This document shows, piece by piece, positions 1 through 60,356 of a stretch of 64,000 bases of DNA. Numbering within the stretch: the first letter of the stretch is position 1; each line of letters starts with the position of its first letter. Under the pieces are notes generated by a model. The model saw only the letters and a program-made list of their open reading frames with translations, was not told the DNA's origin and searched no databases. The position numbers were made by a program, and so were the translations under genes. This DNA is from an uncultured Acidobacteriota bacterium. Lineage in GTDB: Bacteria > Acidobacteriota > Terriglobia > Acidiferrales > UBA7541. Location: assembly GCA_963834215.1 (NCBI GenBank), contig CAWIAM010000015.1, positions 43,881 to 107,880 on the forward strand, written 5' to 3'.

Positions 1-338
1 CCCAATCGGCGCCTGCGCAGTTTCATCAGCGATTGGTTCACTGCGATGCGCGCGAGCCAAGTATAGAAGCGGGAGTCCCCACGAAATGTGTCTATGTGCA
101 GGAAAGACCTGACGAAGGAATCCTGAAAAACCTCCTCGGCGTCTTCATGGTTCCGCGTAATCTTTTGCGCGAGCCGGAAAATCCGCGGTCCGTATCTTGT
201 CACGAGCTCTCCGAACGCATCCGGGTCGCGTCTCCTGGCGGCATCCACGAGCGCCAATTCGTTTGTACCCTCCAGGCGACCGATTGGACCGGATACGGGT
301 TCGTCGTTACTGATCCTGTCTAGCAAACCAGATGGCAT
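1..338 (-). CDS. ECF-type sigma-70 family RNA polymerase sigma factor (N-terminal part; gene runs off the window start)
   Basis: Absent from the ORF track because it is open at the window edge. Manual reverse translation from ATG (338-336): MPSGLLDRISNDEP...RRRDPDAFGELVTRYGPRIFRLAQKITRNHEDAEEVFQDSFVRSFLHIDTFRGDSRFYTWLARIAVNQSLMKLRRRRL, a typical sigma-70 region 2 of ECF/RpoE-like factors. Confidence 0.8.
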   Translation of the reverse strand, partial: MPSGLLDRISNDEPVSGPIGRLEGTNELALVDAARRRDPDAFGELVTRYGPRIFRLAQKITRNHEDAEEVFQDSFVRSFLHIDTFRGDSRFYTWLARIAVNQSLMKLRRRRL

Positions 339-427
339 GGTCTTGATCCTCTCTCCCTGGAACGGCGAGTTGCTGAGTTCGACGCAGGTGGTGCGGCGTT
401 TCGCACGGATCTGTCCGACTTTAGAAA

Positions 428-754
428 TCATTGGCGTGAGAGCCGCAAAAATGAGGCGATCATCCTGGACAGCCCGCGCTTGCTGCGGATTTTCAGTTCC
501 TCAATCAGGTGCGTGTTGTTGAGGCCATTGGCTGTGAATTGCGCGCCATCTCTTGACATGGCGCGCAGCAGCCTTCTCCCACGTTTGTCCAGAAATGTGA
601 GTGCCTCGAGATCAACGATGCAGGTGCGTCCCTTGCGGATACGGTTTGCCGTACTCCAATTTGCCTTCACCTCGGTAACCTGGGATCCGATAAGGCGGCC
701 TTGGAAAACCCAGCGCATTTCCGTGGAGGTTTCGGTGATGATGATCCTCAGCAC
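428..754 (-). CDS. STAS-domain protein (anti-sigma-factor antagonist-like), paralog 1
   Basis: C-terminal 108 aa of ORF 428..940. VLRIIITETSTEMRWVFQGRLIGSQVTEVKANW...CIVDLEALTFLDKRGRRLLRAM... is collinear with the paralog at 1692..1970. GTG at 754 is preceded by GAGAGG (5-nt spacer). The longer ORF would overlap the upstream kinase gene. ATG at 790 is an alternative start. Confidence 0.65.
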   Translation of the reverse strand: MLRIIITETSTEMRWVFQGRLIGSQVTEVKANWSTANRIRKGRTCIVDLEALTFLDKRGRRLLRAMSRDGAQFTANGLNNTHLIEELKIRSKRGLSRMIASFLRLSRQ

Positions 755-878
755 ATTTGCCTCTCGCGCGTCCGCGTCGCACGCAAGCATGTGCCGACGT
801 CTGACGCAGGGAGCGCTAGTGGTATCAGCAAGACGGTGCCAGTCGGATTCGTCGCTCCGTCGAGGATTCCTGTTCGGG

Positions 879-1352
879 TCATTGGGTGCATCTCTTTCGC
901 ATATGGACTTCGGTGCCTTCGCATTCAAAAGAGACCTCATCCATCTGCGATCTCATCAACAAGATGCCTCGCCCGTTCTCGGCGCTGAGGTTTTCGGCAG
1001 CCAAAGGATCGGGAATCGCGTCCGGGTCAAATCCCGTCCCCTGGTCCTTGACGACCACAAACAAACCCTTGCCCAATTCGCACCGGCAATAAACGCGAAC
1101 CAGCTTGCCCGGATCCAGACGGTTGCCGTGCAGCACCGCATTATTGAGAGCCTCACGAAGGGCGATCTCAACGGAAAGCTCTTCCCCGGGGACGCAGCGC
1201 GATTTTTCGATCAAACGGGTCAACCGATCCACTAGCGGTGAGATGGCTTTGACGTCACTTGGCATCCGAGCTTCGATTTCCAGGCATGAATCAGTCCGGC
1301 GTGTTCCCACAGACTCGATTCGCAAATTCGCTGGATGGTTCACGATGAGCAC
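879..1352 (-). CDS. RsbW/SpoIIAB-like anti-sigma factor serine kinase (HATPase_c)
   Basis: 157 aa. N-box EALNNAVLHGN, G1 box VKDQGTGFD, G2-like NGRGILLM. Small single-domain GHKL kinase next to STAS genes. GTG start; the exact start is uncertain. Confidence 0.8.
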   Translation of the reverse strand: MLIVNHPANLRIESVGTRRTDSCLEIEARMPSDVKAISPLVDRLTRLIEKSRCVPGEELSVEIALREALNNAVLHGNRLDPGKLVRVYCRCELGKGLFVVVKDQGTGFDPDAIPDPLAAENLSAENGRGILLMRSQMDEVSFECEGTEVHMRKRCTQ

Positions 1353-1397
1353 CCCGCCGCATCAGACGCGTCGCTCTCTTTTCGCACCGAGAAATGT

Positions 1398-1413
1398 TGC
1401 AATGTGCCCGCCA
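1398..1413 (-). promoter_or_regulatory. Candidate sigma-54 (-24/-12) promoter for the kinase-STAS-ECF sigma operon
   Basis: The minus strand reads TGGCGG-gcaca-TTGCA, with GG-N10-GC spacing as in the consensus TGGCAC-N5-TTGCW. It lies about 45 nt upstream of the GTG at 1352. Confidence 0.45.
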
Positions 1414-1495
1414 ACAGCACGCCGGAACAGAATTTGCGGCAAATGATTGAAGACAGAAGAGCTGTGCACGGCGACAAGGCGCTTTGAAGGGAAAC

Positions 1496-1550
1496 TGTCG
1501 GCGCCTCCGACACTTTTCCCGACAAGTGTCGACGGTCTACGACACTTGAA
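1496..1550. promoter_or_regulatory. Candidate enhancer (UAS): cluster of CGACA/TGTCG half-sites
   Basis: 17-bp dyad TGTCGG-cgcct-CCGACA (1496-1512), then CCGACA-ag-TGTCGA (1519-1532) and CGACACTTGA (1540-1549). It sits 85-150 bp from both candidate sigma-54 promoters. The 10-mer CGACACTTGA recurs at 4777-4786 (minus strand), 18 nt upstream of the sigma-54 activator ATG. Confidence 0.4.
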
Positions 1551-1647
1551 TCCACCCATCGCCCGTATTTCGTCTTGGCTCTTCCTTCGAACCGTTGTTG
1601 CTTCTGCTGCTTAGGGATTCATCGCGTTTGGTGCAGATCCAGTCTTC

Positions 1648-1663
1648 TGGCCCTGCATTTGCA
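1648..1663 (+). promoter_or_regulatory. Candidate sigma-54 (-24/-12) promoter for the STAS-PP2C operon
   Basis: TGGCCC-tgcat-TTGCA with GG-N10-GC spacing and a perfect -12 TTGCA. It ends 29 nt upstream of the ATG at 1692. Confidence 0.55.
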
Positions 1664-1691
1664 GTGTCCAACACGTGCGGAGAAGCAACGG

Positions 1692-1970
1692 ATGCTGAGG
1701 ATTACGATCACCAACACGGCGAAGCAAGAACTGTGGACCCTGCAAGGCCGTCTTGTCACGCCGTGGGTCAGCGAACTGAAGGCGAATTGGAACAGGGCAC
1801 ATCGGGCAACTCAGGGCCGGAGGTGCATCGTGAATCTCCATGAAGTCACATTCATTGACAAGAGCGGGGAGCGAATGTTGCGGCGCATGTTCAACCAGGG
1901 CGCGCAACTTGTCGCCAGTGATGTGTATGTCAGGCAGGTGCTTGATCGCCTTCGGAGAAAGACGAATTAA
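1692..1970 (+). CDS. STAS-domain protein (anti-sigma-factor antagonist-like), paralog 2
   Basis: Internal ATG of ORF 1575..1970. MLRITITNTAKQELWTLQGRLVTPWVSELKANW...CIVNLHEVTFIDKSGERMLRRM..., with a STAS-like beta-alpha pattern. GGAG lies upstream of the ATG. Confidence 0.7.
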   Translation: MLRITITNTAKQELWTLQGRLVTPWVSELKANWNRAHRATQGRRCIVNLHEVTFIDKSGERMLRRMFNQGAQLVASDVYVRQVLDRLRRKTN

Positions 1971-3170
1971 TTGACGGAAATCCGGCGTCCGGGGATCAGC
2001 CAAATGAGTGATTTCGTGCAAAGTAAAACGCCGCAATCACTGCAAGAAATGGAGCCTATTCTTGAAACACTGAATGACGGCGTCGTCGTCGCAGACGATT
2101 CTGATCAGATTCTTTTTGTCAATACGGTTTTCGAGGAAATGACAGGATTCCCTCGCAGCCAAATCATCGGCCGGAACGCCCGTCAGTTGTATCACCGGGC
2201 CGATGAGCTTGCTCTCGCCCAGGCGCTTAACCAGAAAGCCCTGGAGATGGGACGGGCCCGCGAAGAGTTGTCCCTGCCCACGAAAGACGGCGGGCGACTG
2301 CCCGTGGTGGTTAGCCTGCGCGCAATGCACGGACCCGATGGAGAACATTTCTCGGTCGTTACGTTGACCGATATTTCGGAACAAAAGCGCACGGAAGAAA
2401 AGCTCCGCGATGCTATCGCGGGGCTCGAAAAGCGCCAGCGAGAAATTGACCAAGACCTGGTCCTGGCGGCTCGAGTACAGCAGAGCCTGGCACCCGAGCC
2501 CTTTCTCTGGGGAGGCATGGGTGTCGACACTTTCTACCAACCGGCGCATACAATCGGCGGCGACTTCGGCCTTGTGAGGCCGTCGGACGAGAAACATCTG
2601 AATCTACTGGTCTGCGATGTCTCGGGACACGGCATCAGTTCCGCGCTCGTCGCCAACCGAATATACTCGGAGACGGTTACGCTGCTAGGTAATCGTGCGC
2701 CGCTCGCTGATGTACTTCGCCGGCTGAACTCTCTTGTAATTCAGAATATTGGCACGTCAGGATTTTTCTTCACACTGGCGGCAGCCCGAATTGATCGCGA
2801 CGCCCGGACCATGGAGTTCGCCGGAGCCGGACACCCGCCAGCAATGATTGTTCAGCCCGGAGCCGAGCCTCGCCTGCTCCGGTCCCGAAGCGTAGTTCTA
2901 GGCATGTTGCCGGACGCGGTGAATGCCGATGCGACGCTTTACAGAGAGCTCGAGTATGGCGACCGCATCGTGTTGTACACGGACGGCCTCACCGACGTGT
3001 TCAACTCGCGTGGCGAAATGCTCAAAGTGGAAGGAGTCCAAAGCTTCGTCCGCGAAACAGCGCTTCTGCCATTTGGCGAAATGAAGCAAGGCATTCTCGA
3101 CCGCGTTGCCGCGTGGCGCGATGGGCCGCCGGGCGACGACGTGTCACTTGTGCTTGTCGAAGTGCGCTGA
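1971..3170 (+). CDS. PAS-domain PP2C (SpoIIE/RsbU-type) serine phosphatase
   Basis: 399 aa. N-terminal PAS (LNDGVVVADDSDQILFVNTVFEEMTGF), a coiled linker, and a C-terminal SpoIIE/PP2C domain (GGDFGLV, LVCDVSGHGISSAL, YTDGLTD, DDVSLVLVEV). The TTG at 1971 abuts the STAS stop; ATG at 2004 is an alternative start. Confidence 0.85.
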   Translation: MTEIRRPGISQMSDFVQSKTPQSLQEMEPILETLNDGVVVADDSDQILFVNTVFEEMTGFPRSQIIGRNARQLYHRADELALAQALNQKALEMGRAREELSLPTKDGGRLPVVVSLRAMHGPDGEHFSVVTLTDISEQKRTEEKLRDAIAGLEKRQREIDQDLVLAARVQQSLAPEPFLWGGMGVDTFYQPAHTIGGDFGLVRPSDEKHLNLLVCDVSGHGISSALVANRIYSETVTLLGNRAPLADVLRRLNSLVIQNIGTSGFFFTLAAARIDRDARTMEFAGAGHPPAMIVQPGAEPRLLRSRSVVLGMLPDAVNADATLYRELEYGDRIVLYTDGLTDVFNSRGEMLKVEGVQSFVRETALLPFGEMKQGILDRVAAWRDGPPGDDVSLVLVEVR

Positions 3171-3178
3171 AGAGCGGC

Positions 3179-4759
3179 TCACGAAATCTTTCGCGGATCA
3201 ATCCCCAACTTCTTCATCCGTGTGAGCAACGTAGTGCGCTTTAGTCCCAAGCGGGCCGCGGCGCCGTTGGGACCTCCGACGCGTCCCTTGGTTTCTCTCA
3301 GTATTCGTACAATCCTATCTCGTTCATCGAAGTTCTCGGCTCTTGCCGGAGACAACTTGGTGTCACCGCTTCCCAATTCAGGTACAGAGATCGCGAGCGT
3401 GCTGCTGCGCGTGAGGATCACTGCGCGTTCTACAAGGTTCTGAAGCTCACGAACGTTTCCGGGCCAATGCCATCGTGCCAGCTTCCGGAGCGCTGCCGCG
3501 GGGATATTTTCGATTCGCTTTTGCATGCGGCGCGCGTACTTTTGGCTGAAGTATCGCACCAACAAAGGAATGTCTTCCGGCCGGTCGCGCAAGGGAGGAA
3601 GGCGGATCGGAAAAACATCCAGGCGGTAGTAGAGATCGCTTCGAAATTGCTTTTCTTCAATCATCCGGTCCAGCTCACGATTGGTCGCAGCGATCAGCCG
3701 AATGTCGACTTTCTTCGTGCGTGTGCTTCCCAGCCGCTCGAATTCTCTGTCCTGCAAAACGCGCAGAAGCTTTGGCTGGAGTTCCAGCGGGATGTCGCCG
3801 ACTTCATCCAGAAACAACGTGCCTTGGTCAGCCAGTTCCAGTCGGCCAATCTTCTGTGTGACCGCGCCGGTGAAGGCACCGCGTTCGTGGCCAAAGAGCT
3901 CGCTTTCAAGCAAACCAGTGGGAATCGCTGCACAGTTTAGCTCGACAAATGTTCGCGCGTTGCGGCGGCTGCGCTCATGAATGGCGCGCGCGACGAGTTC
4001 CTTTCCGGTGCCTGTTTCTCCCAGCAGAAGCACGGTCGAATCACTCGTGGCAACCGTTTCGGCCAGTTGCAGAGCCTGCCGCAGCGCCGAGCTCTGCCCA
4101 ATAATCCCTTCAAAATCCGACGTGCTGCGAATCTCCTCTTCTAAATAAAGTTTTTCCTGCGCGAGTTTGTCTTTTAGCTCGGCGATCTCTCTATAGGCTA
4201 AGGCGTTCTCGATGGCGATTGCCACCTGACCTGCCACTCGCACCAAAAAGTCCACGTCCTCGAGGCTGAACGAGTTCTCGATTCGGCTGGCGATCGCTAG
4301 AACCCCGAGCGTTCGGTTTCGGCTGATCAGGGGCAGCATGCAGCCAGACTCGATGGCTTCCGCACGAGCCAAATGGGCTGAAAGCTCACTCTTGACATCG
4401 GCTTTTGTTCTTAAGAGAAGAGGTTTGGCGGTAGTAAATACACTGCCTATCTCGGACCCCTCGATCGGGCGCAGCAAACCCTCCTTCGCCACTCCCTTGC
4501 TTTCTGGAAAGTCCATCACGATGTGGCGCAATTGACGACGCTCCGAATCCGGAAGCCATACCCCGACGAGGTCGCAGTGCATGTCCTGTCGAATGCTCGC
4601 CGAGATTGTACGGAGGAGATCGCGGGGTTCCAAATTCGAGATCATCGCGTTCGTCATGTCCAGCAATAGCTTCAGTCGGTCGCTTTCGCGCCGCAGTTCC
4701 GGTGTTGCGCTGGGCGACTCTTGGGAGTTGAATGACGGGTTTGGTAACGAAGAGCGCAT
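3179..4759 (-). CDS. Sigma-54-dependent transcriptional activator with N-terminal GAF domain (Fis-type HTH)
   Basis: Walker A GETGTGKE, sigma-54 contact loop GAFTGA, Walker B LFLDEVGD, C-terminal HTH AAARLGLKRTTLLTRMKKLGI. The N-terminal ~200 aa is GAF-like. ATG at 4759 (GGGGA upstream) is preferred over the TTG at 4867 given by the ORF track. Confidence 0.9.
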   Translation of the reverse strand: MRSSLPNPSFNSQESPSATPELRRESDRLKLLLDMTNAMISNLEPRDLLRTISASIRQDMHCDLVGVWLPDSERRQLRHIVMDFPESKGVAKEGLLRPIEGSEIGSVFTTAKPLLLRTKADVKSELSAHLARAEAIESGCMLPLISRNRTLGVLAIASRIENSFSLEDVDFLVRVAGQVAIAIENALAYREIAELKDKLAQEKLYLEEEIRSTSDFEGIIGQSSALRQALQLAETVATSDSTVLLLGETGTGKELVARAIHERSRRNARTFVELNCAAIPTGLLESELFGHERGAFTGAVTQKIGRLELADQGTLFLDEVGDIPLELQPKLLRVLQDREFERLGSTRTKKVDIRLIAATNRELDRMIEEKQFRSDLYYRLDVFPIRLPPLRDRPEDIPLLVRYFSQKYARRMQKRIENIPAAALRKLARWHWPGNVRELQNLVERAVILTRSSTLAISVPELGSGDTKLSPARAENFDERDRIVRILRETKGRVGGPNGAAARLGLKRTTLLTRMKKLGIDPRKIS

Positions 4760-4952
4760 TCTTACATTCCCCTGTGTCAAGTGTCGCACAAATTTGCACG
4801 GGAATTCCGAGTCTCGTCTCCTGTTTAAGACTGTCACATGATCAGACGCTTGTGACCGGTGGCGCAATCTGACCCTCGCCGAAGGAGCTACTGGCGCGAT
4901 CGATCTTTCCGAAGAACACCATGATGTCGTTCGGATCTCCCATCTCGAGTTC

Positions 4953-5687
4953 CTAGGCGCCTGTGATGGTCCGCTCCAGCGAAGATAGACTCAACAGCAG
5001 GGCACAAGGGACCAGCAGAGTCCACACGCCCAGATGGTGCGCCACTGCCGATCCGAGCACGGCTCCAACGAGGAACGCACTCCACACGCTGGCCAACACA
5101 GCCGCTCGCCGCCAACGCGTGTCCGATGAACCCTGAGCGTCCGGTAGCGGTGTGCGCTTGATCCCCAACGCGAGGTGCTGAGCCAAACTGTTCAAGTCTC
5201 CGGTCACAAAACCCAGGCTGACGTTCTGTCCGCCGACGCGGGTGATGGATGTGTTCAAAATGCCCATCGCGGTGCTCAAAAGCGTGATACTCGACCATTC
5301 TGGCCACGCCCGGTAGGCCGCGATTGCGCTGATCAACAGCATGGTCGAGACCAGAACCGAAAGTCGAAGCAACGACCGGCGTTGATCGGCGCGCGGCATC
5401 GATGTCCCCACAAAAATACCGAGCACAAAGAATGGAATCGGGAGCAAGCTGTGCCCTGCAGCGGCCAGCTTGGCCTGCCCGGCCTGCGCACCGCCGGAAG
5501 TCGTGTTGCCGCTCATGAATGAGGCGAAAACGCCGAAGTTCAAAAGTGCGTACGAGTCCACATACCCCGAAATCAGCGCGAGGCCGGTGGCTCTGCGCCA
5601 TTCGGTGACTACGGTTTTTTGCAATGTCGGTACTGTCGCTCCGACATAGCTGAAGTCCTCGTGCTCCTGACGTTTGATCTCTGGCAT
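4953..5687 (-). CDS. YoaK/DUF1275 family membrane protein
   Basis: 244 aa, multi-pass and hydrophobic. The ALISGYVDSYALLNFGVFASFMSGNTT motif is typical of DUF1275. Confidence 0.7.
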   Translation of the reverse strand: MPEIKRQEHEDFSYVGATVPTLQKTVVTEWRRATGLALISGYVDSYALLNFGVFASFMSGNTTSGGAQAGQAKLAAAGHSLLPIPFFVLGIFVGTSMPRADQRRSLLRLSVLVSTMLLISAIAAYRAWPEWSSITLLSTAMGILNTSITRVGGQNVSLGFVTGDLNSLAQHLALGIKRTPLPDAQGSSDTRWRRAAVLASVWSAFLVGAVLGSAVAHHLGVWTLLVPCALLLSLSSLERTITGA

Positions 5688-5927
5688 CGCGGGTCCACTA
5701 GATTGATACGGTCTCTGCGTTAGCTTTCAAATTCACTTCCATCGGAATTTACGACTCTCCCGCATGCATCGCGAACTGTAGCAATCCATGTCTGCTGGTT
5801 TTTTCTCGCGTGGGTCTGACGTTTACGCGGAATCACCCTTCTCCTTGTGCGCAGCGGGAAGTTTTGCGCAAGCTAAAGTGACCCAATTCGCCACGCAATA
5901 TCCGGCGCCTGCGGCGCGGAGCCAGAT

Positions 5928-6095
5928 TCAACCGGTCGAGCCTACCTCGGCGTCCTTGCCGTCGCCATCGACGATCGCTTCATGCTTTGGGCCGAGGTTG
6001 CTGACGCCCGCCTGTTGAATGGAAGCCCGGCGATTTGCGGTATCGACCGTCGGATTGTCGAACGGCGCCGATTTTTTCGGCGTATTTTTCCCCAT
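5928..6095 (-). CDS. Small hydrophilic hypothetical protein (55 aa)
   Basis: Below the ORF-track size cutoff. ATG at 6095 is preceded by AGGAG with a 6-nt spacer. MGKNTPKKSAPFDNPTVDTANRRASIQQAGVSNLGPKHEAIVDGDGKDAEVGSTG. No recognisable domain. Confidence 0.3.
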   Translation of the reverse strand: MGKNTPKKSAPFDNPTVDTANRRASIQQAGVSNLGPKHEAIVDGDGKDAEVGSTG

Positions 6096-6201
6096 GGAAC
6101 GCTCCTCTGTTATTTAGTGAATTCCAAAATCTCGAAACGAAGCGCCAACGCGTCCATCTTGCGGCATAAAGGCAATCTATTCTGTTAAGTGTGGAAGTCG
6201 T

Positions 6202-8172
6202 TCAATACTGCGGAAGCTTCGTCTTCGTCACGTCCGGATCGACGTCAATTCCATGCCGCTGCAACGTGTCCCCAAGCGCTCGATACAATTGCACGGTAGC
6301 CTTCTTCCAAGCCAACTGAGCCGCGATCTCGGTCGTCTCAGCTTGTGTCAGATAACTCTGCTGCTCGATTACAGCAAAAGTTGTGGAGAAGACCGCACGA
6401 AACTTTTCCGCCTCGGCACTGAGAAGCTGCTCCTGTAGATTCCTGGCGGTTGCGGCTGCCTGTGCTGCCTGCTTGGCAGTGTTCAGGGCGATCACTGCAT
6501 TTCTTACCTCCGCGGCAGCCTGCGCCTCCATCTGCACCCGACGCAATCGTTCTTGCTGAAGTTGCGCACGGTCAGCACCCAGGTCGGCCTCGGCGACCTT
6601 ATTCCGTACGGGCACATTAAACTGAATACCTGCTTCCAATATTTCTGAAGCACGAAGTCCGCCAGTGGGTATCGTGTCAAGGATGGGAGCACCGGTTGTG
6701 AGATCGCCGCCCACTGGAACAAGGCTCGGGCTGATGACCCCTCGACTCTGGAATGAGCCATACAGATCGAGTTCTGGCAGCCGGGCATTGGCAGAGCCCG
6801 CGACGGCGCGTTCTCCGTTGCTCACTTGCAGCTTGGACTGTCTTATGTCAGGCCGCTGCTCCAGGGCGTGTTGGATGAGCTCGGCCATCGGAGAAAGTGG
6901 CGTATCCGGTGGTGATGAAAGTTCATCCGTCGCCACAATATCTACCAGTTTTGCATCGGGAGTCGAGAGCGATTGCGGATCAATGACACTTCGCAGGACA
7001 TTCTCCTGTTGCTCTCGGAGTGAATTTGCCTGTGTAAGGGCAAGTTGGCTCGCGGCCACTAGAGCCTCCGCACGCGCCACCTCGATCGGAGGCATACGCC
7101 CAAGATCTGACTGCTGCCGATTATCGTTCAGCAGACGATTCGCTGCATCCAGAGCCATTTGTTGCACTTTAACGGAATTCTGCAAACTCACGAGGTCCCA
7201 ATACAGACTCTCGACGCCAGAAACCGTGCTTATCATCTGTTGCTCGAGGATGTTCGCGGAGATCTTTTTATTTGTCTTAGCCATCTCTATGTAACGGGTG
7301 TTGTTCTTGCGACCAGCGCCACGAAGCAGTGGTTGGGCGATAAGGGCAGTCGCGTTGGGATGCGTGAACGGAACCGCGGAGGATCGACCGGAGTAAAACG
7401 AATCAACGAAGTCATTGATTCCAAGCTGGATCGAAGTACCGGTGGAGAAGCCTTTCACCGCAATTACGTTCCCCAGCGTGTTATTCGTAATTGTTGTATC
7501 TCCGGCAGTAGTGGAACCTGAGTTCACGAGTGCATTGCTTGGATCTCTCCGAATCCAACCGAATTGCCCCTGCAGATTAAGATCGAAAACTGGGACTGAA
7601 ACACCGGGCGAAAACGGCGACGTGGCAATCGACAGAGAGTGTTGTGCCGACAGAACATGGCTGGCATCGTAGGAAGATGGAATCGTGATTCCCGAGGGCT
7701 CGATGCCATTCGGCGACAGCGTTGACGCCGTGGAATCGAGAAGTGGGAGGGGTGCTACTAACTCCCCAGCCGGCGCTTCGGCAATGTTGTAATTAATTGA
7801 ACGGGGGACGGCACCGCCTTCCGTTCTTGTGACGCTGAAATCAGCCACCGACTGATCGATCTGCTCCAATCGGATGTCGAGGTTATTCTCAAGAGCCATG
7901 CGGATGGCCTGTTGCAACGACAGCTGCATGCTATCGGAACTGGACTCCTGGCCCGCCGCTTCCGCATGAAAGGCGAGCCGAGCAGGCGAGGATGCCTCAA
8001 TTCTGTCCTCGTTAGTTCGGAAGCTTCCCCTCGTTTCGGATGTAGATTGGCACACACCCCGCGTGCAAACGAACCCGAGCGCCAGGAGCACCACGCAGAT
8101 TCTCACGTCCCTCGTCCACGAAATCAGCGCGAACGATGAATTTTGAGATGCCCTACGGCAGATGCGAATCAT
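6202..8172 (-). CDS. TolC-family outer-membrane efflux protein (long form, 656 aa)
   Basis: Signal-like N-terminus, two OEP-type coiled repeats (LSLQQAIRMALENNLDIR...; HALEQRPDIRQSKLQV...), and an ATGA start/stop overlap with the adaptor gene at 8169-8172. Confidence 0.8.
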   Translation of the reverse strand: MIRICRRASQNSSFALISWTRDVRICVVLLALGFVCTRGVCQSTSETRGSFRTNEDRIEASSPARLAFHAEAAGQESSSDSMQLSLQQAIRMALENNLDIRLEQIDQSVADFSVTRTEGGAVPRSINYNIAEAPAGELVAPLPLLDSTASTLSPNGIEPSGITIPSSYDASHVLSAQHSLSIATSPFSPGVSVPVFDLNLQGQFGWIRRDPSNALVNSGSTTAGDTTITNNTLGNVIAVKGFSTGTSIQLGINDFVDSFYSGRSSAVPFTHPNATALIAQPLLRGAGRKNNTRYIEMAKTNKKISANILEQQMISTVSGVESLYWDLVSLQNSVKVQQMALDAANRLLNDNRQQSDLGRMPPIEVARAEALVAASQLALTQANSLREQQENVLRSVIDPQSLSTPDAKLVDIVATDELSSPPDTPLSPMAELIQHALEQRPDIRQSKLQVSNGERAVAGSANARLPELDLYGSFQSRGVISPSLVPVGGDLTTGAPILDTIPTGGLRASEILEAGIQFNVPVRNKVAEADLGADRAQLQQERLRRVQMEAQAAAEVRNAVIALNTAKQAAQAAATARNLQEQLLSAEAEKFRAVFSTTFAVIEQQSYLTQAETTEIAAQLAWKKATVQLYRALGDTLQRHGIDVDPDVTKTKLPQY

Positions 8173-9494
8173 CTTTCCTGCCCTTTGGGCGCAGTCTTGG
8201 TTTGGACGTGAACGCCTTCCTGCACGCTATCGGTGGGGTTAACCACTATTTGGTCTCCGTTCCGAAGTCCGGTAGTTACATACACCTCTGTTCCCAAATC
8301 GCGCCCCACGTGGATCTGCTGGAGGTGAACGATGTTGTTGTCAACGACGGCCACGAACTGTCCCTGCGCCCGAGGGATTACGCTGTCGCCAGATATCAGA
8401 ATGCCGGGGTTTTGCACATTGAAGTGCAGTTGCACCAAAGCGAACATTCCTGGGCGCAGCTGCCCCTTGGGGTCCTGTATCTGCACTTCGAGCAACAATG
8501 TTCGGGTCTGCTGATTGAGAGAGTCGCTGCTGCGAATGATCTTTCCGTGGAATTGTTCACCAGGCAGCTCGGAGAATGTAAGGGTGGCTTCGCGTCCGGT
8601 CTGCACGTTCTCTGCATCCCCCTCCGGCACACTGATGAATGTTCGAAGATCATGCGTGTTCGCGATCTGGAAGAGTTCGCCGCCCTGCGCGCCGCCGGTG
8701 GGTGGGCCCCCAGAGTTCGCTTGAATGGAGGTTGTGTTTACAGTGAGGCCCGCGGCCGCCCCGCTACTCGAGACGAAGCTGCCGATGTCGACGTTACGAG
8801 CAGTCACAGTTCCATCGATGGGCGAACGCACCTGCTCGTAAGAAGCGAGCACCGTCCAATGCTCAAGGGCAGAGGCCTCGGCGTTCACATTGTTCTCTGC
8901 CGACTGTACCGCGTCAGTCGCAGCTTTGACCGCGGCGAGTGCTACGTCGTCATCCTGCTGCGACAACACTCCGTGCTGGGCAAGAACGTGAACTCGGTCA
9001 TAGGTCGCCTGTTGCAAGGCCAGTTGACTGCGTGCCGTGTTCAGAGACGCTTTGCTGACCTGTAGCAAGGATTGCTGCTGCCTCACCGTGGCATCGAGGT
9101 CCGGGGACTCAATAACGGCCAGTAGTTGACCGCGACGAACGCTGTCGCCGATATCTACGTTCAGAGTCTTGAGGTACCCCGTTGCTCGGGCGTAAATGTG
9201 GGAGGTCACAACCGGCACAACGGTTCCAGGCAACGTAAGCTCCTCCGTCTTCGGGACCTCGGAAGCGGTCACCACCTCTACAATCGGAAGCGCCGCTTTC
9301 GTTTGATTCGCTCTTGCCTGAACCCGCTCGTTGAGCTGGCGTTTGGGCCACCACCCCAGCAGCAACAGTCCGGCGATGACCACCACAGCAACAAGCAAGT
9401 ACCGCCCGTAACGAGGCCGCAGACCCGAAGCCGAGCCTTTTTCTCCACTATTCGTCGATGGCGTGGAGCCCCCAAAGGGTCTGCTATTCATCAC
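8169..9494 (-). CDS. RND efflux periplasmic adaptor (MFP/HlyD family)
   Basis: 441 aa. N-terminal membrane anchor, lipoyl/barrel-sandwich motifs (GYLKTLNVDIGDSVRRGQLLAVIESPDL) and a coiled-coil hairpin. Confidence 0.85.
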   Translation of the reverse strand: MMNSRPFGGSTPSTNSGEKGSASGLRPRYGRYLLVAVVVIAGLLLLGWWPKRQLNERVQARANQTKAALPIVEVVTASEVPKTEELTLPGTVVPVVTSHIYARATGYLKTLNVDIGDSVRRGQLLAVIESPDLDATVRQQQSLLQVSKASLNTARSQLALQQATYDRVHVLAQHGVLSQQDDDVALAAVKAATDAVQSAENNVNAEASALEHWTVLASYEQVRSPIDGTVTARNVDIGSFVSSSGAAAGLTVNTTSIQANSGGPPTGGAQGGELFQIANTHDLRTFISVPEGDAENVQTGREATLTFSELPGEQFHGKIIRSSDSLNQQTRTLLLEVQIQDPKGQLRPGMFALVQLHFNVQNPGILISGDSVIPRAQGQFVAVVDNNIVHLQQIHVGRDLGTEVYVTTGLRNGDQIVVNPTDSVQEGVHVQTKTAPKGQER

Positions 9495-9576
9495 GCCGCT
9501 CCAGAAGGCATGCTTGCGGCGATGCCTGATCGAGTTCCTGCGAATTGGCTACTTGCCCTAATTCGGGGTTTCATCG

Positions 9577-12500
9577 TCATTGGGCTCCCTGCAAGTGTCC
9601 CCTTGTTTCCTCGTCAATCCGTCTGTCGAAATCTATCGGCGCTTCCTTGCGGAGCAGCGAGTAGATGATCGGCACAATGAAAAGCGTACCGACCGTGGCA
9701 AACAGAAGTCCGCCGATCACGGCGCGACCAATCGGTGCGTTTTGCTCGCCACCTTGACCGAGCGCCAACGCCATCGGGAACATGCCGAGTATCATGGCAA
9801 GCGCAGTCATGCAGACGGGGCGCAGCCGCGTGTGCCCAGCCTCAAGCGCAGCCTCGAGAGCGTTCTTGCCGTCAGCACGCGCGTCATTCGCAAACGTGAC
9901 CACCAAAATGCTGTTTGCCGTGGCCACACCCATCGTCATGATGGCTCCCATCAAAGCGGGAACGCTGAACGTCGTCTGCGTCAAAAACAGAACCCACACG
10001 ATGCCAGCGAACGCTCCCGGAAGGGCCATCAGGATGATGAAGGGGTCCGACCACGACTGGAAGTTGAGAGCCATCAGCAGGTAAACGAAAACGATGGCTG
10101 CTATGATCCCAAGGCCCAGGTGCAGAAACGATGAATTCATCGTTTGCACTTGCCCCCCGAGCTCAATCCGAGTGGCTTCTGGAAGATGCTGCGAAGCACT
10201 TTTGATAATCTTCTGTATATCGCGTGCTACTCCGCCCAGATCGCGATTCTCGGTGTTGACGTATACATCCATCACTGGCTGAGCGTTGAAGTGCGATACC
10301 GTAAGCGGCGCGAAGGCACGATGAATTGAGGAAACATTACCCAGAAGCTGATCGTTATGGGACTCCGGTGAGGTAACCGTCAAATCGGATAGCGTATTGA
10401 AACTGTCAAGACGGTATTGCGGAACTTGTACAACCAGCGGGTACTCTACGCCCGTTTTCGGGTCCATCCAGAAATTCGGGGCCGTTTGCCCGCTGCCGGA
10501 AAGTGCCAGAACCATATTGCCGGCAACATCCCGCTGCGTCAGCGAAAGTTCTTGGGCCTTCAGACGATCCACGTTGACGTCGAACTCTGGTGCATTGAAT
10601 TGCTGCTGAATAAAAACGTCAGCTGCTCCGGGCACGTTCTTGATCTGGTTCTGGAGTTCGACGGCAATCTGCTGCGTGGCCGTCGCGTCCTTTCCCAAGA
10701 CCCGGACATCGACGGGCGCCGGTAACCCGAAGTTGAGCGTCTGGCTGGTGATGTCCGCGGGTTCGAAGAAAAATGTCTCTTGCGGAAAAACTCTATTCAG
10801 ATCTTCGCGCAGAATGCTCATCCACTCCTGCGTGGGGCGGTGCTTGGGAGTAAGCTGCACTAATATATCGCCGTCTCCGTTGCTGGTAGTGTCACTCGCG
10901 GAAAACGCCAGGTTTACGCCGCCGGGTGGAAGGCCGATGTTGTCGACGACCATAGACAGTTGATCGGGCGGAATCACGCGTCGTATCTCCTTATCCACGC
11001 GCGCGAAGATCTCCGTCGCTACTTCGATCCGCGTGCCACTTGGCGGACGGACGTGAAACTGTATTTGTCCGGAATCGACATAGGGAAAGAAATTTTCGCC
11101 AATCACAAATACAAGAGTAAGCGATCCCAGTGACACCATCGCGAACACAACGATCACCAGCGCCCGATGCGCCAGCGCCCATTCGAGTAGAGAGCGATAT
11201 TTCTTTTGGAAGCTGTCGAAATGGTGCTCAAAGCGCTTGTGAAAGCGCCAGATCCAGCTCTCCGCTTGCGGTGAGTTCTCTTCATCTTGATACAACGAGA
11301 CTTCCGCCGGCATCAGGTAGTGCATCATGGCGGCGACTAGCGTTCGCGACAGCAAATACGACGCGATCATCGCAAACACCACGGCCAGCGCCAGCGGAGT
11401 GAAGATGTATTTTGCGGCTCCCGACAATAGCGTCACCGGAAGAAACACAATGCAAATGCACATCGTCGATACCAGCGCCGGAGCGGCCACCTGCTGCGCA
11501 CTGTTCAGAATGGCCGCGGCCAAGGGAATCTTGCTTACCGCGAGGTTGCGGTGCGTGTTCTCAATCTCCACGGTCGCGTCGTCGACGAGCATGCCTACCG
11601 CGAGCGCCAAGCCCCCCAGTGACATTACGTTGATCGTTTCACCGAGATGGGAAAAGGCCGCCACCGAAACGAGGATGGCGAGCGGGATCGAAGTGCATAC
11701 AATCAACGTGCTGCGCCAACTACCCAGAAAAATAAGGATCATGATCGCGGTAAGCAAGGCCGCCGTAATCGCCTCCTGCACCACATCCCGCACGGATGCT
11801 TTCACAAGCAGCGATTGATCGAAAAGCGGAGTGATGGTAAGCGCGCTGGGCAGGCCCGCTTTGATTCGGGGAAGCGCTTTCTTAACCTGGTTCACGATGG
11901 TAATGGTCGAGAAAGCACCGTTCTTGATAACGGTGAGGAGTACGGACGGTTTGCCATTTTCCTGCACAAAGCTGGTTTGCGGCTCATACCCGTTGTGAAT
12001 CCACGCCACGTCACGCATTCGGGTGATTGACCCGTTCAGCGAACGGATCGGCATATCGTTGAGCTCGGCGATGGAAGGAGGACTGCTGTTGCTGCCGACA
12101 AGATATTCCCTGTCGCCAATTTTTTCGGTTCCGGTGGGGAGGATGAGGTTTTGATTACTGAGCGCGCCTGAGATGTCGGAAACCGTGAGATGATTTGCCG
12201 CCAACTGCTCGGGTTCTGCATCCACCATGATGGCGCGTTCCTCACCACCATAGGGTAGTGGCACGGCCGCGCCCTGGATGGTGGCCAACTGCGAACGGAT
12301 GAAGTTCTGTCCCAGGTCGAAGAGTTGCTGCTGTGACAGAGTCTTTCCGCCCAAGCTCAACTGCACGATGGGCACGCTGGAAGCGTCGTATTTCAATATC
12401 TGCGGCGGGAGAATGCCTGGTGGCAACTGGCGGAGGATCGACTGAGCGAGCGCGGTTACCTGGGCGATGGCTAGATCGATTTGAACGTTGGGTTGAAACG

Positions 12501-12783
12501 AAACCTTGATGACGCCTATGCCGGTGAAGGATTGCGATTCAGTACTTTTGATATTGTTGACCGTCGTGGACAGCGCTCGCTCACAGATACCCACGATTCG
12601 CTTCGACATGTCATCTGCGTCGAGGCCGTTGTAAGTCCAGATAACGCTGACAATTGGAATGTTGATCTCCGGAAGTATGTCCGTGGGCGTAGTCACAATC
12701 GCGGAAACACCGAAGATAAAGATCAGCAAAGCAATAATGACAACGGTATAAGGCCTTCGTAGTGCTAAATTCACTAGCCACAT
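9577..12783 (-). CDS. RND efflux permease (AcrB/CzcA superfamily)
   Basis: 1068 aa. 12-TM architecture with two large periplasmic loops. Starts MWLVNLALRRPYTVVIIALLIFIFG, a typical RND N-terminus. Confidence 0.95.
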   Translation of the reverse strand: MWLVNLALRRPYTVVIIALLIFIFGVSAIVTTPTDILPEINIPIVSVIWTYNGLDADDMSKRIVGICERALSTTVNNIKSTESQSFTGIGVIKVSFQPNVQIDLAIAQVTALAQSILRQLPPGILPPQILKYDASSVPIVQLSLGGKTLSQQQLFDLGQNFIRSQLATIQGAAVPLPYGGEERAIMVDAEPEQLAANHLTVSDISGALSNQNLILPTGTEKIGDREYLVGSNSSPPSIAELNDMPIRSLNGSITRMRDVAWIHNGYEPQTSFVQENGKPSVLLTVIKNGAFSTITIVNQVKKALPRIKAGLPSALTITPLFDQSLLVKASVRDVVQEAITAALLTAIMILIFLGSWRSTLIVCTSIPLAILVSVAAFSHLGETINVMSLGGLALAVGMLVDDATVEIENTHRNLAVSKIPLAAAILNSAQQVAAPALVSTMCICIVFLPVTLLSGAAKYIFTPLALAVVFAMIASYLLSRTLVAAMMHYLMPAEVSLYQDEENSPQAESWIWRFHKRFEHHFDSFQKKYRSLLEWALAHRALVIVVFAMVSLGSLTLVFVIGENFFPYVDSGQIQFHVRPPSGTRIEVATEIFARVDKEIRRVIPPDQLSMVVDNIGLPPGGVNLAFSASDTTSNGDGDILVQLTPKHRPTQEWMSILREDLNRVFPQETFFFEPADITSQTLNFGLPAPVDVRVLGKDATATQQIAVELQNQIKNVPGAADVFIQQQFNAPEFDVNVDRLKAQELSLTQRDVAGNMVLALSGSGQTAPNFWMDPKTGVEYPLVVQVPQYRLDSFNTLSDLTVTSPESHNDQLLGNVSSIHRAFAPLTVSHFNAQPVMDVYVNTENRDLGGVARDIQKIIKSASQHLPEATRIELGGQVQTMNSSFLHLGLGIIAAIVFVYLLMALNFQSWSDPFIILMALPGAFAGIVWVLFLTQTTFSVPALMGAIMTMGVATANSILVVTFANDARADGKNALEAALEAGHTRLRPVCMTALAMILGMFPMALALGQGGEQNAPIGRAVIGGLLFATVGTLFIVPIIYSLLRKEAPIDFDRRIDEETRGHLQGAQ

Positions 12784-58700: not shown

Positions 58701-58951
58701 TTCGCGTTCAGCGAATACATGTAGTTCATGTTGTCCACGCCGCTCATCTGCTGCTCGATCGGCGTGGCCACCGATTCCTCTAGCGTCTTCGCGTCGGCGC
58801 CCGGGTAAGTCGCCTGTACCTGGATTTCCGGCGGGACGATATTAGGGAACTGCGCGGTCGGCAACTGCAGCATCGACACAATTCCGACAATCACCGTCAA
58901 AATGGCGATGACCATGGCCACAATCGGCCGATCGATGAAAAATTTCGACAT
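55781..58951 (-). CDS. RND multidrug efflux permease (HAE1, AcrB/MexB-like)
   Basis: [23 protein letters not shown]... is a canonical HAE1 N-terminus; about 1056 aa from ATG 58951. The ORF-track start at 59074 would overlap the adaptor gene. Confidence 0.95.
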
Positions 58952-58953
58952 GG

Positions 58954-60141: not shown

Positions 60142-60356
60142 CCGGACCGAAGTGAAAATCTCGCGCGCTTGTGAAAAAGTGCTCTTCCACAACCATCGTC
60201 GCGTCGCCGCTACTGTCATCGCTTGTTTTCCCCCGAGGGTTTCCACATCGAATGCCGACATTGATTCGTGCTCGACCGAACGACAAAAGGCGCTTTGACT
60301 CGCTTAGATGCATAACCCGCCAGGCCGATTCACATATATCTGTCTCGCTTTGAAAC

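What the first reader, a model, noticed from the sequence alone, without database searches (positions are those of the whole stretch)
1..4786. Sigma-54 / GAF-activator control of a partner-switching module adjacent to an ECF sigma factor
On the minus strand the gene order is RsbW-like kinase, STAS, then ECF sigma. Divergently on the plus strand it is STAS then PAS-PP2C phosphatase. A GAF-domain sigma-54 activator (GAFTGA present) converges on the phosphatase gene. Both operons are preceded by -24/-12-type promoters (see next finding). The inferred cascade is: signal sensed by GAF, then sigma-54 transcription, then partner switching (with a second input through the PAS domain), then release of an ECF sigma. 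Partner-switching control next to an ECF sigma is known from Bordetella BtrS/BtrU/BtrW/BtrV. Layering it under sigma-54 with duplicated STAS proteins is unusual.
Basis: partly seen in the sequence, partly recalled or inferred. Interest (0 to 1): 0.65.

Follow-up and report, generated by a model that had tools for sequence, protein, structure and literature searches.

The report
Sigma-54-driven ECF sigma and STAS regulatory cassette
A soil acidobacterium carries a conserved gene switch in which a sigma-54 activator drives two back-to-back promoters, one for an ECF sigma factor with a kinase-like inhibitor and one for unusual STAS proteins that lack the usual phosphorylation site, so the wiring is real but is not a textbook partner-switching system.

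Summary
All six genes are present in the stated order. Two matches to the sigma-54 consensus (TGGC-N7-TTGCW) face outward from the 340-bp intergenic region, with two TGTCG...CGACA palindromes between them.

This geometry is conserved to within a few bases in about 65 of 72 related Acidobacteriota (Terriglobia) loci. Transcriptional control by the adjacent GAF-domain activator is therefore well supported.

The partner-switching step is only partly supported:
- Both small proteins have a STAS fold; the best structural match is SpoIIAA bound to SpoIIAB.
- They belong to a large unannotated subfamily in which the canonical phospho-serine is Lys, Gln, Arg or Glu.
- The kinase, STAS_A and the PAS-PP2C phosphatase are each dispensable in relatives.
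- STAS_B plus the activator is the constant core.
- Where the RsbW-like kinase is present, it is almost always beside the ECF sigma (29 of 30 loci).

In relatives the leftward operon continues into an EmrAB-type efflux pump, which lies beyond the window edge.

Sigma-54 control of an ECF sigma has a precedent in HrpL. An RsbW-like protein and a STAS protein paired with an ECF sigma is not among the described ECF control modes. I rate this a new variant of known kinds. All evidence is in silico.

The parts
1..338 (-). ECF sigma factor, N-terminal 112 aa (region 2). The gene runs off the left edge of the window.
   Evidence: Pfam Sigma70_r2 E 2.5e-17. NCBIfam sigma70-ECF 51 bits against a cutoff of 42.9. 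78-79% identical to full-length ECF sigmas of about 224 aa in L005, L006 and L010.
428..790 (-). STAS_A core: a STAS-like paralog of STAS_B, 120 aa if started at the internal ATG at 790.
   Evidence: 44% identical to STAS_B over 88 aa, E 1e-26. 71-90% identical orthologs sit between the kinase and the ECF sigma gene in 24 loci. The motif is F-L-D-K-R-G, with no Ser or Thr at the canonical site.
791..891 (-). Conserved N-terminal extension of STAS_A (MHPMTRTGILDGATNPTGTVLLIPLA...). It is in a different frame from the core, with an apparent frameshift near 813. Its ATG at 891 overlaps the kinase stop by 13 nt.
   Evidence: Three-frame translation compared with the in-frame L010 and L061 proteins. 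Sister-run contigs carry a -2 or +1 indel at 813-817 that restores the frame.
879..1352 (-). RsbW/SpoIIAB-like HATPase_c_2 protein, 154-157 aa: the putative anti-sigma factor and Ser kinase.
   Evidence: Pfam HATPase_c_2 E 9e-24. PDB sequence hits to SpoIIAB (E 4e-7) and RsbW. The N-box (EALNNAVLHGN), G1 (DQGTGFDP) and G2 (GRGILLM) are conserved in 31 orthologs. It is adjacent to an ECF sigma gene in 29 of 30 loci and in 3 of 3 kinase-seeded contexts.
1398..1413 (-). Sigma-54 (-24/-12) promoter of the kinase-STAS_A-ECF operon: TGGCGGGCACATTGCA.
   Evidence: A TGGC-N7-xTGC element sits at the same place, about 279 nt upstream of the STAS_B ATG on the opposite strand, in most of the 72 non-redundant relatives.
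1440..1468 (.). Conserved block GCGGCAAATGATTGAAGACAGAAGAGCTG between the leftward promoter and UAS1. Its role is unknown; it may be an architectural-protein site.
   Evidence: High information content in the alignment of 40 non-identical upstream regions. Also visible.
1496..1512 (.). UAS1 palindrome TGTCGGCGCCTCCGACA: a candidate binding site for the activator.
   Evidence: the pattern TGTCG-N7/8-CGACA occurs only twice in 64 kb, against 0.18 expected. Conserved at about -197 from the STAS_B ATG in relatives.
1527..1544 (.). UAS2 palindrome TGTCGACGGTCTACGACA: a second candidate binding site for the activator.
   Evidence: Conserved at about -166 in relatives.
1648..1663 (+). Sigma-54 (-24/-12) promoter of the STAS_B-PP2C operon: TGGCCCTGCATTTGCA.
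   Evidence: It starts 40-46 nt (mostly 44) before the STAS_B ATG in about 65 of 72 non-redundant relatives. The consensus TGGCCCTGCATTTGCA has near-invariant GG and GC.
1692..1970 (+). STAS_B: a 92-aa STAS-fold protein of an unannotated subfamily that lacks the phospho-Ser.
   Evidence: AF2 pLDDT 87.6. Foldseek top hits are SpoIIAA in the SpoIIAB complex (1th8_B, E 6e-6, TMq 0.75), RsbV and TM1442. K57 aligns with the phospho-Ser59 of TM1442. The family has 2531 clusters at 50% identity with E<=1e-3.
2004..3170 (+). PAS-coiled coil-PP2C (SpoIIE-family) phosphatase, RsbP-like in architecture.
   Evidence: Pfam SpoIIE E 2e-41 and PAS E 3e-17. The metal-site motifs GGDFG, DVSGHG, YTDGLTD and GDDVSL are present in the translation. 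It lies directly downstream of STAS_B in 26 of 35 loci with enough flank.
3179..4759 (-). GAF-AAA+-HTH sigma-54 enhancer-binding protein (the ORF is readable out to 4867).
   Evidence: Pfam Sigma54_activat E 1e-72, GAF E 1e-13 and AAA_lid_14. GAFTGA at 3880. FhlA-like over GAF to HTH, 575 bits but below the 830 cutoff. It is convergent downstream of STAS_B in 34 of 35 loci.

Best explanation
This is a conserved regulatory cassette of uncultured soil and peat Acidobacteriota (Terriglobia).

Transcription step (well supported):
- The GAF-domain enhancer-binding protein (4759..3179) binds two palindromes, TGTCGG-N5-CCGACA and TGTCGA-N6-ACGACA.
- The palindromes lie between two divergent sigma-54 promoters.
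- When its GAF domain senses an unknown ligand, the protein switches on both operons together.
- Leftward: kinase, STAS_A and the ECF sigma. In relatives this operon continues into a roughly 30-aa membrane micro-ORF and an EmrA/EmrB-type MFS efflux pump.
- Rightward: STAS_B and the PAS-PP2C phosphatase.

Post-translational step (inferred):
- The RsbW-like ATPase acts as the cognate anti-sigma factor of the ECF sigma.
- The STAS-fold proteins act as its antagonists.
- They lack the canonical phospho-serine, so antagonism is probably set by STAS abundance (that is, by sigma-54 transcription), by the nucleotide state of the kinase, or by a non-canonical modification, not by the classical Ser-phosphate cycle.
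- The PAS-PP2C adds an optional second input, whose substrate is not identified.

Shown: gene identities, the STAS fold, loss of the phospho-site, promoter and UAS conservation, and the gene linkage statistics.
Inferred: all binding partners, the GAF signal, and the ECF regulon.
For: Domains.

Promoters and upstream sites:
- Two consensus sigma-54 promoters lie in one 340-bp spacer; there are 4 matches in 64 kb.
- The UAS palindromes are unique to this spacer, 2 found against 0.18 expected.
- Promoter and UAS positions are conserved to within a few nt across about 65 of 72 non-redundant loci.
- They persist in loci whose flanking genes differ, such as L002 and L003.

Gene linkage:
- The activator is convergent downstream of STAS_B in 34 of 35 loci.
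- The kinase is next to an ECF sigma gene in 29 of 30 loci.
- The same holds in 3 of 3 contexts seeded independently from the kinase.
- The kinase stop overlaps the STAS_A start by 13 nt.

Proteins:
- The kinase ATP-binding boxes are conserved.
- STAS_B has a STAS fold; its best structural match is SpoIIAA bound to SpoIIAB.

Operon output and expression:
- EmrB (85-96% identical) and EmrA lie downstream of the ECF sigma gene in about 40 loci, with no room for an internal promoter.
- Related transcripts occur in a rhizosphere metatranscriptome. This is weak evidence.
Against: - The canonical phospho-Ser is absent in both paralogs and in the whole family. The next residue is Ser in only 60 of 150 representatives.
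- Even so, the kinase and PP2C look catalytically intact, and their substrate is unexplained.
- STAS_B is retained at 72-85% identity in loci that have no kinase, STAS_A or PP2C nearby. It may therefore have another partner.
- No RsbW-type anti-sigma factor is documented for any ECF sigma.
- rpoN was not seen.
- No transcription start sites and no binding data are available.
- All loci come from metagenomes or MAGs.
Confidence: 0.55

Rival explanations
1. A canonical phosphorylation-driven partner switch. The kinase phosphorylates STAS_A and/or STAS_B, the PAS-PP2C dephosphorylates them, and the unphosphorylated STAS protein releases the ECF sigma from the kinase.
For: - All three component types are present, with catalytic motifs intact.
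- STAS_B and the PP2C gene are 33 nt apart.
- The full six-gene arrangement is the commonest architecture, 12 of 26 fully covered loci.
- In loci of that arrangement, STAS_B almost always has Ser at the position after next (D-x-S-G).
Against: - The residue aligned with the phospho-Ser of TM1442, SpoIIAA and RsbV is K/Q/R/E.
- The neighbouring Ser is replaced in some loci that have both kinase and PP2C (L011 DRRG, L089 DKYG).
- It is also replaced in PP2C-only loci (KC, RN, KG).
- STAS_A reads DKRG, DERG, DKGG or DKNA.
- Kinase and PP2C occur without each other.
Confidence: 0.2
2. STAS_B's main partner is not the kinase. As the one constant sigma-54-dependent product encoded beside the activator, it feeds back on the activator (like PspA on PspF, or HrpV on HrpS) or acts on the efflux pump (like the STAS protein MlaB on its transporter). 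The kinase, STAS_A and PP2C are lineage-specific add-ons that control the ECF sigma.
For: - STAS_B plus the activator is the invariant core (34 of 35 loci). It is present in loci with no kinase or PP2C (L002, L009, L031, L036-39).
- Family members were called as fusions with OEP, HlyD or Sigma70_r2 segments, which points to recurrent adjacency to pump and sigma genes.
- MlaB is among the structural matches.
Against: - I know of no STAS-activator interaction.
- The best structural matches are antagonists bound to anti-sigma kinases.
- A kinase could be encoded elsewhere in genomes that lack it at this locus.
- The 'fusions' may be gene-calling artefacts.
Confidence: 0.2
3. The -24/-12 matches and the palindromes are chance, and the operons use ordinary sigma-70 or ECF promoters.
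For: Only motif matches are available and no transcription start data exist. Two other TGGC-N7-TTGCW matches in the window lie inside ORFs.
Against: - Position and sequence are conserved across about 65 of 72 divergent loci, while the surrounding spacer varies.
- The palindromes are unique in 64 kb.
- No sigma-70-like site is found in the spacer.
- A GAFTGA activator is linked in 34 of 35 loci.
Confidence: 0.03

Closest known systems
HrpR/HrpS - sigma-54 - HrpL (ECF32) cascade of Pseudomonas syringae and Erwinia
   Same: An ECF sigma gene is transcribed from a sigma-54 promoter that an enhancer-binding protein activates, which makes a two-tier sigma cascade (PMC8999054 and PMC5263251).
   Different: - HrpR/S have no GAF sensor and are controlled by HrpV/HrpG.
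- HrpL has no RsbW-like, STAS or PP2C neighbours.
- The HrpL regulon is a type III secretion system, not an efflux pump.
- There is no shared bidirectional promoter pair.
Bacillus subtilis sigma-B and sigma-F partner switching (RsbW/RsbV/RsbU-RsbP; SpoIIAB/SpoIIAA/SpoIIE)
   Same: - A HATPase_c_2 kinase/anti-sigma factor, a STAS antagonist and a SpoIIE-family PP2C.
- A PAS-PP2C architecture like that of RsbP.
- STAS_B's best structural matches are SpoIIAA and RsbV in complex with their kinases.
   Different: - The sigma factor here is an ECF (group 4), not group 3.
- The STAS proteins lack the phospho-Ser and fall below the Pfam STAS threshold.
- Transcription depends on sigma-54.
Mycobacterium tuberculosis UsfX - RsfA/RsfB - SigF
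   Same: This is a precedent for an RsbW-type anti-sigma factor that is antagonised by a STAS protein without phosphorylation (RsfA; from my own knowledge). The UsfX-RsfB complex 8ih8 is among the structural matches.
   Different: - From my own knowledge, UsfX lacks kinase activity, whereas the ATP-binding boxes are conserved here.
- SigF is a group 3 sigma factor.
- There is no sigma-54 layer.
Bordetella btr locus (BtrS ECF sigma, BtrU/BtrW/BtrV)
   Same: An ECF sigma gene lies in the same locus as a PP2C, an RsbW-like kinase and a STAS protein.
   Different: - BtrU/W/V control secretion through a serine phosphorylation cycle by an unknown mechanism.
- The anti-sigma factor of BtrS is the secreted BtrA (PMC7498569).
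- Activation is by BvgAS, not by sigma-54.
- The genes are not co-transcribed with the sigma gene.
PhyR-NepR-EcfG (ECF15)
   Same: It is the only partner-switch mechanism listed for ECF sigma factors in reviews.
   Different: The proteins are unrelated: a sigma-mimic response regulator and the small NepR. There is no HATPase, STAS or PP2C.

Membership tests
Sigma-54-dependent promoter with a bEBP-controlled operon | GG at -24 and GC at -12 with the canonical spacing (TGGC-N7-TTGC), upstream of the gene and on the correct strand | tested here: met
   1413..1398 (-) and 1648..1663 (+). Conserved in relatives.
Sigma-54-dependent promoter with a bEBP-controlled operon | Upstream activator sequences (palindromes) about 80-150 bp from the promoter | tested here: met
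   Two palindromes at 1496-1512 and 1527-1544. They lie about 85-130 bp from each promoter, are unique in the window and are conserved. Binding itself was not tested.
Sigma-54-dependent promoter with a bEBP-controlled operon | rpoN present in the genome | not testable with these tools
   No RpoN box was found in the six-frame translation of the 64-kb window. The rest of the genome is not available.
Sigma-54-dependent promoter with a bEBP-controlled operon | Transcript start about 12 nt downstream of the -12 element, with rpoN-dependent expression | not tested
   Only assembled metatranscriptome contigs from relatives are available, and none gives a 5' end.
Bacterial enhancer-binding protein (sigma-54 activator) | AAA+ sigma-54 interaction domain with a GAFTGA loop, plus a sensor domain and a C-terminal HTH | tested here: met
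   Sigma54_activat 243 bits and GAF 52 bits. GAFTGA at 3880. The alignment to FhlA runs to position 689 of 692, which includes the HTH. It is not an FhlA equivalog: 575 bits against a cutoff of 830.
RsbW/SpoIIAB-type partner-switching module | Small HATPase_c_2 kinase/anti-sigma factor with N, G1 and G2 boxes | tested here: met
   Pfam E 9e-24. The boxes are conserved in 31 orthologs. It scores below the NCBIfam RsbW and SpoIIAB equivalog cutoffs.
RsbW/SpoIIAB-type partner-switching module | Antagonist with a STAS domain | tested here: inconclusive
   Fold test met: pLDDT 87.6, with Foldseek SpoIIAA E 6e-6 and TMq 0.75. Sequence test not met: Pfam STAS and STAS_2 E 0.011-0.08, below the gathering score, and profile-versus-PDB E 0.15.
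RsbW/SpoIIAB-type partner-switching module | Phosphorylatable Ser or Thr immediately after the conserved Asp at the N-terminus of helix 2 (D-S-x-G) | tested here: not met
   STAS_B reads D-K-S-G and STAS_A reads D-K-R-G. K57 aligns with Ser59 of TM1442. That position is K/Q/R/M/E/N/G in about 90 loci, with one exception, L014 DSSG. It is never Ser in 150 representatives.
RsbW/SpoIIAB-type partner-switching module | PP2C (SpoIIE-family) phosphatase with intact metal-binding motifs | tested here: met
   SpoIIE 142 bits. The motifs GGDFG, DVSGHG, YTDGLTD and GDDVSL are visible in the translation.
RsbW/SpoIIAB-type partner-switching module | The kinase binds the sigma factor and, alternatively, the STAS protein | not testable with these tools
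   Only genomic linkage is available: kinase next to an ECF sigma gene in 29 of 30 loci and in 3 of 3 kinase-seeded contexts.
ECF (group 4) sigma factor | Regions sigma-2 and sigma-4 only, with a length of about 170-250 aa | tested here: met
   The window holds sigma-2 only. The 78%-identical full-length ortholog in L010 is 224 aa and matches the TIGR02937 sigma70-ECF model at 99.6 bits against a cutoff of 42.9.
ECF (group 4) sigma factor | Assignment to a defined ECF group (ECF Hub HMMs) | not testable with these tools
   No ECF-group library is available. The best NCBIfam equivalog is PRK11922 at 159 bits against a cutoff of 204, so it is not a member.

The most novel reading that the evidence does not exclude
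An RsbW-like ATPase is the dedicated anti-sigma factor of an ECF sigma factor. It is antagonised by phosphorylation-independent STAS-like proteins whose level is set by a GAF-activator/sigma-54 bidirectional promoter. This would be a previously undescribed mode of ECF control, widespread in Terriglobia, that gates an EmrAB-type efflux pump. The STAS-like proteins would define a large unannotated family (about 2500 clusters at 50% identity) with a new mode of action.
Probability: 0.35. Interest if true: 0.7.

Novelty: new variant of a known kind. Interest (0 to 1): 0.55.

Why it matters
ECF sigma factors are the largest family of bacterial alternative sigma factors, and their control modes have been catalogued in detail. 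An RsbW/STAS-type module co-transcribed with an ECF sigma is not in that catalogue. Sigma-54 control of an ECF sigma is known essentially only from HrpL.

Three things follow from this locus:
- It offers a compact model that can be reconstituted to ask how three regulatory layers (enhancer-binding protein, partner switch, ECF sigma) are combined.
- It exposes a large STAS-like family that has lost the phospho-serine, so it must work differently from textbook anti-anti-sigma factors.
- It points to an inducible MFS efflux response in abundant but uncultured soil Acidobacteriota.

Tried and rejected
- My first sigma-54 pattern had the wrong spacer (N8) and found nothing. I corrected it to N7.
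- A looser pattern, TGG-N8-TTGC, is not enriched in the window (11 found, 10.6 expected). Only the fuller consensus is informative.
- Sequence searches of STAS_B against Pfam and PDB gave only sub-threshold STAS hits. The predicted fold was needed to settle the assignment.
- Looking up the window's own contig returned only a 985-nt Logan contig. The left flank therefore had to be inferred from relatives.
- The supplements of the ECF classification paper are not held, so no ECF group could be assigned.
- The kinase's top PDB hit, 'SenB' (9qih), could not be traced in the literature.
- The metatranscriptome run holds only assembled contigs from 85-92% similar relatives, so it gives no transcript start.
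- I looked for an ECF-type promoter between STAS_A and the ECF sigma gene, and between the ECF sigma gene and EmrA. I saw no convincing motif, and the latter gap is filled by a micro-ORF.
- I tested whether Ser at the D-x-S-G position tracks with the presence of kinase and PP2C. There was no clear correlation.
- Context look-ups for distant family representatives were uninformative.
- I found no convincing IHF consensus in the conserved spacer blocks. This was by eye on the alignment.

Full report
**1. What is in the sequence**

Minus strand:
- An RsbW/SpoIIAB-like HATPase_c_2 protein at 1352..879 (E 9e-24).
- A small paralog of STAS_B (STAS_A), with its core at 790..428.
- The first 112 residues of an ECF sigma factor at 338..1 (Sigma70_r2 E 2.5e-17). 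The gene is cut by the window edge.

Plus strand:
- STAS_B at 1692..1970, 92 aa. This is exactly the gene called on the source contig (P0001).
- A PAS-SpoIIE/PP2C phosphatase at 2004..3170.

Converging on the phosphatase, with 8 nt between the stop codons, is a GAF-AAA+-HTH sigma-54 activator at 4759..3179. It carries GAFTGA at 3880.

The window is from an acidobacterium. The closest loci are MAGs labelled Candidatus Acidiferrales, Candidatus Sulfotelmatobacter, Terriglobales and Terriglobia. The DNA recurs in soil and peat metagenomes.

**2. Are the small proteins STAS?**

- The two proteins are 44% identical paralogs.
- Both miss the Pfam threshold (STAS and STAS_2 E 0.011-0.08).
- A family profile hits TM1442 and SpoIIAA in the PDB only at E 0.15-0.9.
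- An AlphaFold2 model built on 28 homologs is confident (pLDDT 87.6).
- Its best structural matches are SpoIIAA in complex with SpoIIAB (1th8_B, E 6e-6, TMq 0.75), then RsbV in complex with RsbW, TM1442, RsfB and RsbS.

The fold is therefore STAS.

The defining functional residue is missing. In the profile alignment, D56-K57-S58-G59 of STAS_B aligns with D58-S59-A60-G61 of TM1442, so the phospho-Ser position is Lys.

- Across about 90 loci this position is K/Q/R/M/E/N/G in STAS_B, with a single DSSG exception. It is K/E/R in STAS_A.
- A full HMMER scan of 1.84 billion representatives finds 2531 family clusters with E<=1e-3 and 654 with E<=1e-10.
- In the best 150 of these, the position is never Ser and is Thr once. 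The next residue is Ser in only 60 of 150.

This is a large, unannotated STAS-like subfamily without the canonical phospho-acceptor.

**3. The promoters and the enhancer**

- TGGC-N7-TTGCW occurs 4 times in 64 kb, against 1.5 expected.
- Two of the four lie in the 340-bp spacer, each pointing at its operon.
- Between them are two palindromes, TGTCGGCGCCTCCGACA and TGTCGACGGTCTACGACA. These are the only two matches to TGTCG-N7/8-CGACA in the window, against 0.18 expected.
- No sigma-70-like site is found in the spacer.

I collected 12 genome loci and 80 metagenome loci that encode STAS_B relatives, plus a few from exact look-ups. In about 65 of 72 non-redundant upstream regions the geometry is fixed:
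- The rightward 16-mer starts 40-46 nt (mostly 44) before the ATG. Its consensus is TGGCCCTGCATTTGCA.
- UAS2 is at about -166.
- UAS1 is at about -197.
- The leftward TGGC-N7-xTGCA is at about -279.

The same cassette is present where the flanking genes differ. In L003 it drives the ECF sigma gene directly. In L002 it precedes a DUF3300/DUF2950 operon that ends in an ECF sigma gene.

The GAF activator lies convergent downstream of STAS_B in 34 of 35 loci with enough flank.

Together this is strong comparative evidence for a bidirectional, activator-dependent sigma-54 control region. rpoN itself is not in the window and could not be looked up.

**4. How constant is the partner-switching module?**

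Among 26 dereplicated loci covered on both sides, 12 have the window's full arrangement. The rest lack one or more of kinase, STAS_A, PP2C or the ECF sigma gene.

Recurrent variants:
- DUF2934 <- kinase <- ECF | STAS_B <- activator, with no STAS_A and no PP2C.
- ECF | STAS_B <- activator only.
- ECF | STAS_B -> PP2C <- activator, without the kinase.

The constant core is STAS_B plus the activator plus the promoter cassette.

The kinase is almost always beside an ECF sigma gene. This holds in 29 of 30 loci; the exception, L061, has lost the ECF sigma gene and EmrA. It also holds in 3 of 3 contexts seeded independently from kinase homologs.

The kinase keeps its N, G1 and G2 ATP-binding boxes in every variant. 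The PP2C keeps its metal-site motifs. Two ECF clades, only 36-40% identical to each other, occupy the same slot.

**5. Output of the leftward operon**

In relatives the ECF sigma gene is followed, within about 13 nt, by three elements:
- a conserved micro-ORF of about 30 aa that is hydrophobic;
- EmrA, a HlyD-type membrane fusion protein;
- EmrB, an MFS transporter.

In L098 an outer-membrane factor is present as well. EmrB is the most conserved gene of the locus, at 85-96% identity. The window begins inside the ECF sigma gene, so these genes presumably lie just beyond its left edge.

**6. Mechanism**

Shown: the transcriptional architecture.

Inferred:
- The RsbW-like ATPase is the anti-sigma factor of the co-transcribed ECF sigma factor.
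- The STAS-fold proteins antagonise it.
- The phospho-site is absent family-wide, and kinase and PP2C are separable. The classical Ser-phosphate cycle is therefore unlikely to be the core mechanism.
- I favour antagonism set by abundance or by the kinase's nucleotide state. A precedent is RsfA acting on UsfX in M. tuberculosis (my own knowledge). The PAS-PP2C would be an accessory input of unknown substrate.

A serious alternative is that STAS_B acts on the activator or on the pump. This rests on STAS_B being retained in loci that have no kinase, and on family members that are called fused to OEP, HlyD or sigma segments.

**7. Comparison with known systems**

- Sigma-54 control of an ECF sigma factor is established for HrpL (ECF32) through HrpR/S (PMC8999054; PMC5263251).
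- Reviews and the ECF reclassification list only PhyR-NepR-EcfG as an ECF partner switch. They do not mention RsbW or STAS contexts.
BtrU/W/V regulate secretion by an unknown mechanism, and BtrA is the anti-sigma factor of BtrS (PMC7498569).
- Full-text searches found no paper that describes this combination.

**8. Verdict**

I rate this a new variant of known kinds and of moderate interest. It is conserved, widespread in abundant soil bacteria and mechanistically non-canonical, but it is known only from sequence and from uncultured organisms.

Noticed in passing
window 791-891 (-), break near 813: STAS_A is split by a frameshift. Its conserved N-terminal extension (ATG at 891, overlapping the kinase stop by 13 nt) is in a different frame from the STAS core. 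Contigs from sister soil runs carry a -2 or +1 indel at 813-817 that restores the frame, as does a metatranscriptome. This is either strain variation or an assembly error.
   Followed up: partly
L010 3950-4070 (-), L031 about 1990-2200 (-); beyond the left edge of the window: A conserved micro-ORF of about 30 aa, hydrophobic, lies directly after the ECF sigma gene and before EmrA/EmrB. In L010 it reads VIAWALVAALAILAFLMVSGWFSEFGRGRPR; in L031 it reads MMTILLGAALTILVWLSLGGPGGGNGSNRLE. It occurs with both ECF clades. Its function is unknown; it could be a pump accessory or a minimal membrane regulator.
   Followed up: no
L010 1039-3947 (-) and about 40 other loci: An EmrA (HlyD-type) and EmrB (MFS) efflux pump lies downstream of the ECF sigma gene in the same orientation. 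EmrB is 85-96% identical across loci and is the most conserved gene of the locus. L098 adds an outer-membrane factor.
   Followed up: partly
L002 7340-8000; also L005, L006, L008, L010 and L017-L028: Many relatives carry an insertion of about 385 nt between the UAS and STAS_B. It holds a first promoter copy, a 5' remnant of STAS_B, a DUF2934 gene and a second promoter copy, which is sometimes degraded to TTTACA. The window lacks this insertion. DUF2934 genes recur around these loci.
   Followed up: partly
window 1440-1468 and 1590-1647: Two further conserved non-coding blocks lie in the spacer: GCGGCAAATGATTGAAGACAGAAGAG, and TTGTTGCTTC..CTTAGGGATTCATCGCGTTTGGTGCAGATCCAGTCTTC. They have no assigned function, and I saw no convincing IHF consensus in them.
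   Followed up: no
window 2004-3170 (+), PAS domain: The PAS domain scores sub-threshold against the YtvA (LOV) family (E 8e-10). It carries GRNARQL where LOV domains have GRNCRFLQ, so it looks LOV-like without the photoactive Cys.
   Followed up: no
window 4953-12783 (-): Next to the activator lie a DUF1275 membrane protein (4953-5687) and what looks like a second efflux system: a TolC-like outer-membrane protein (6202-8172), a probable HlyD-type adaptor (8169-9494) and a 1068-aa ORF the size of an RND transporter (9577-12783). I judged these three from ORF size and translation and did not run a family scan on them. More pump genes lie at 54381-60261 (OEP and HlyD confirmed by Pfam).
   Followed up: no
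window 18280-18295 (+) and 34999-35014 (-): These are the two other exact TGGC-N7-TTGCW matches. Both lie inside long ORFs, and neither has a TGTCG...CGACA palindrome nearby. They are probably chance, although the first is 75 nt upstream of a possible ORF at 18370.
   Followed up: no
window 879-1352 (-): The kinase's best PDB sequence match is the C-terminal part of a 304-aa protein deposited as 'SenB' (9qih, E 3.5e-11). This is better than the match to SpoIIAB. I found no paper that explains what SenB is.
   Followed up: partly
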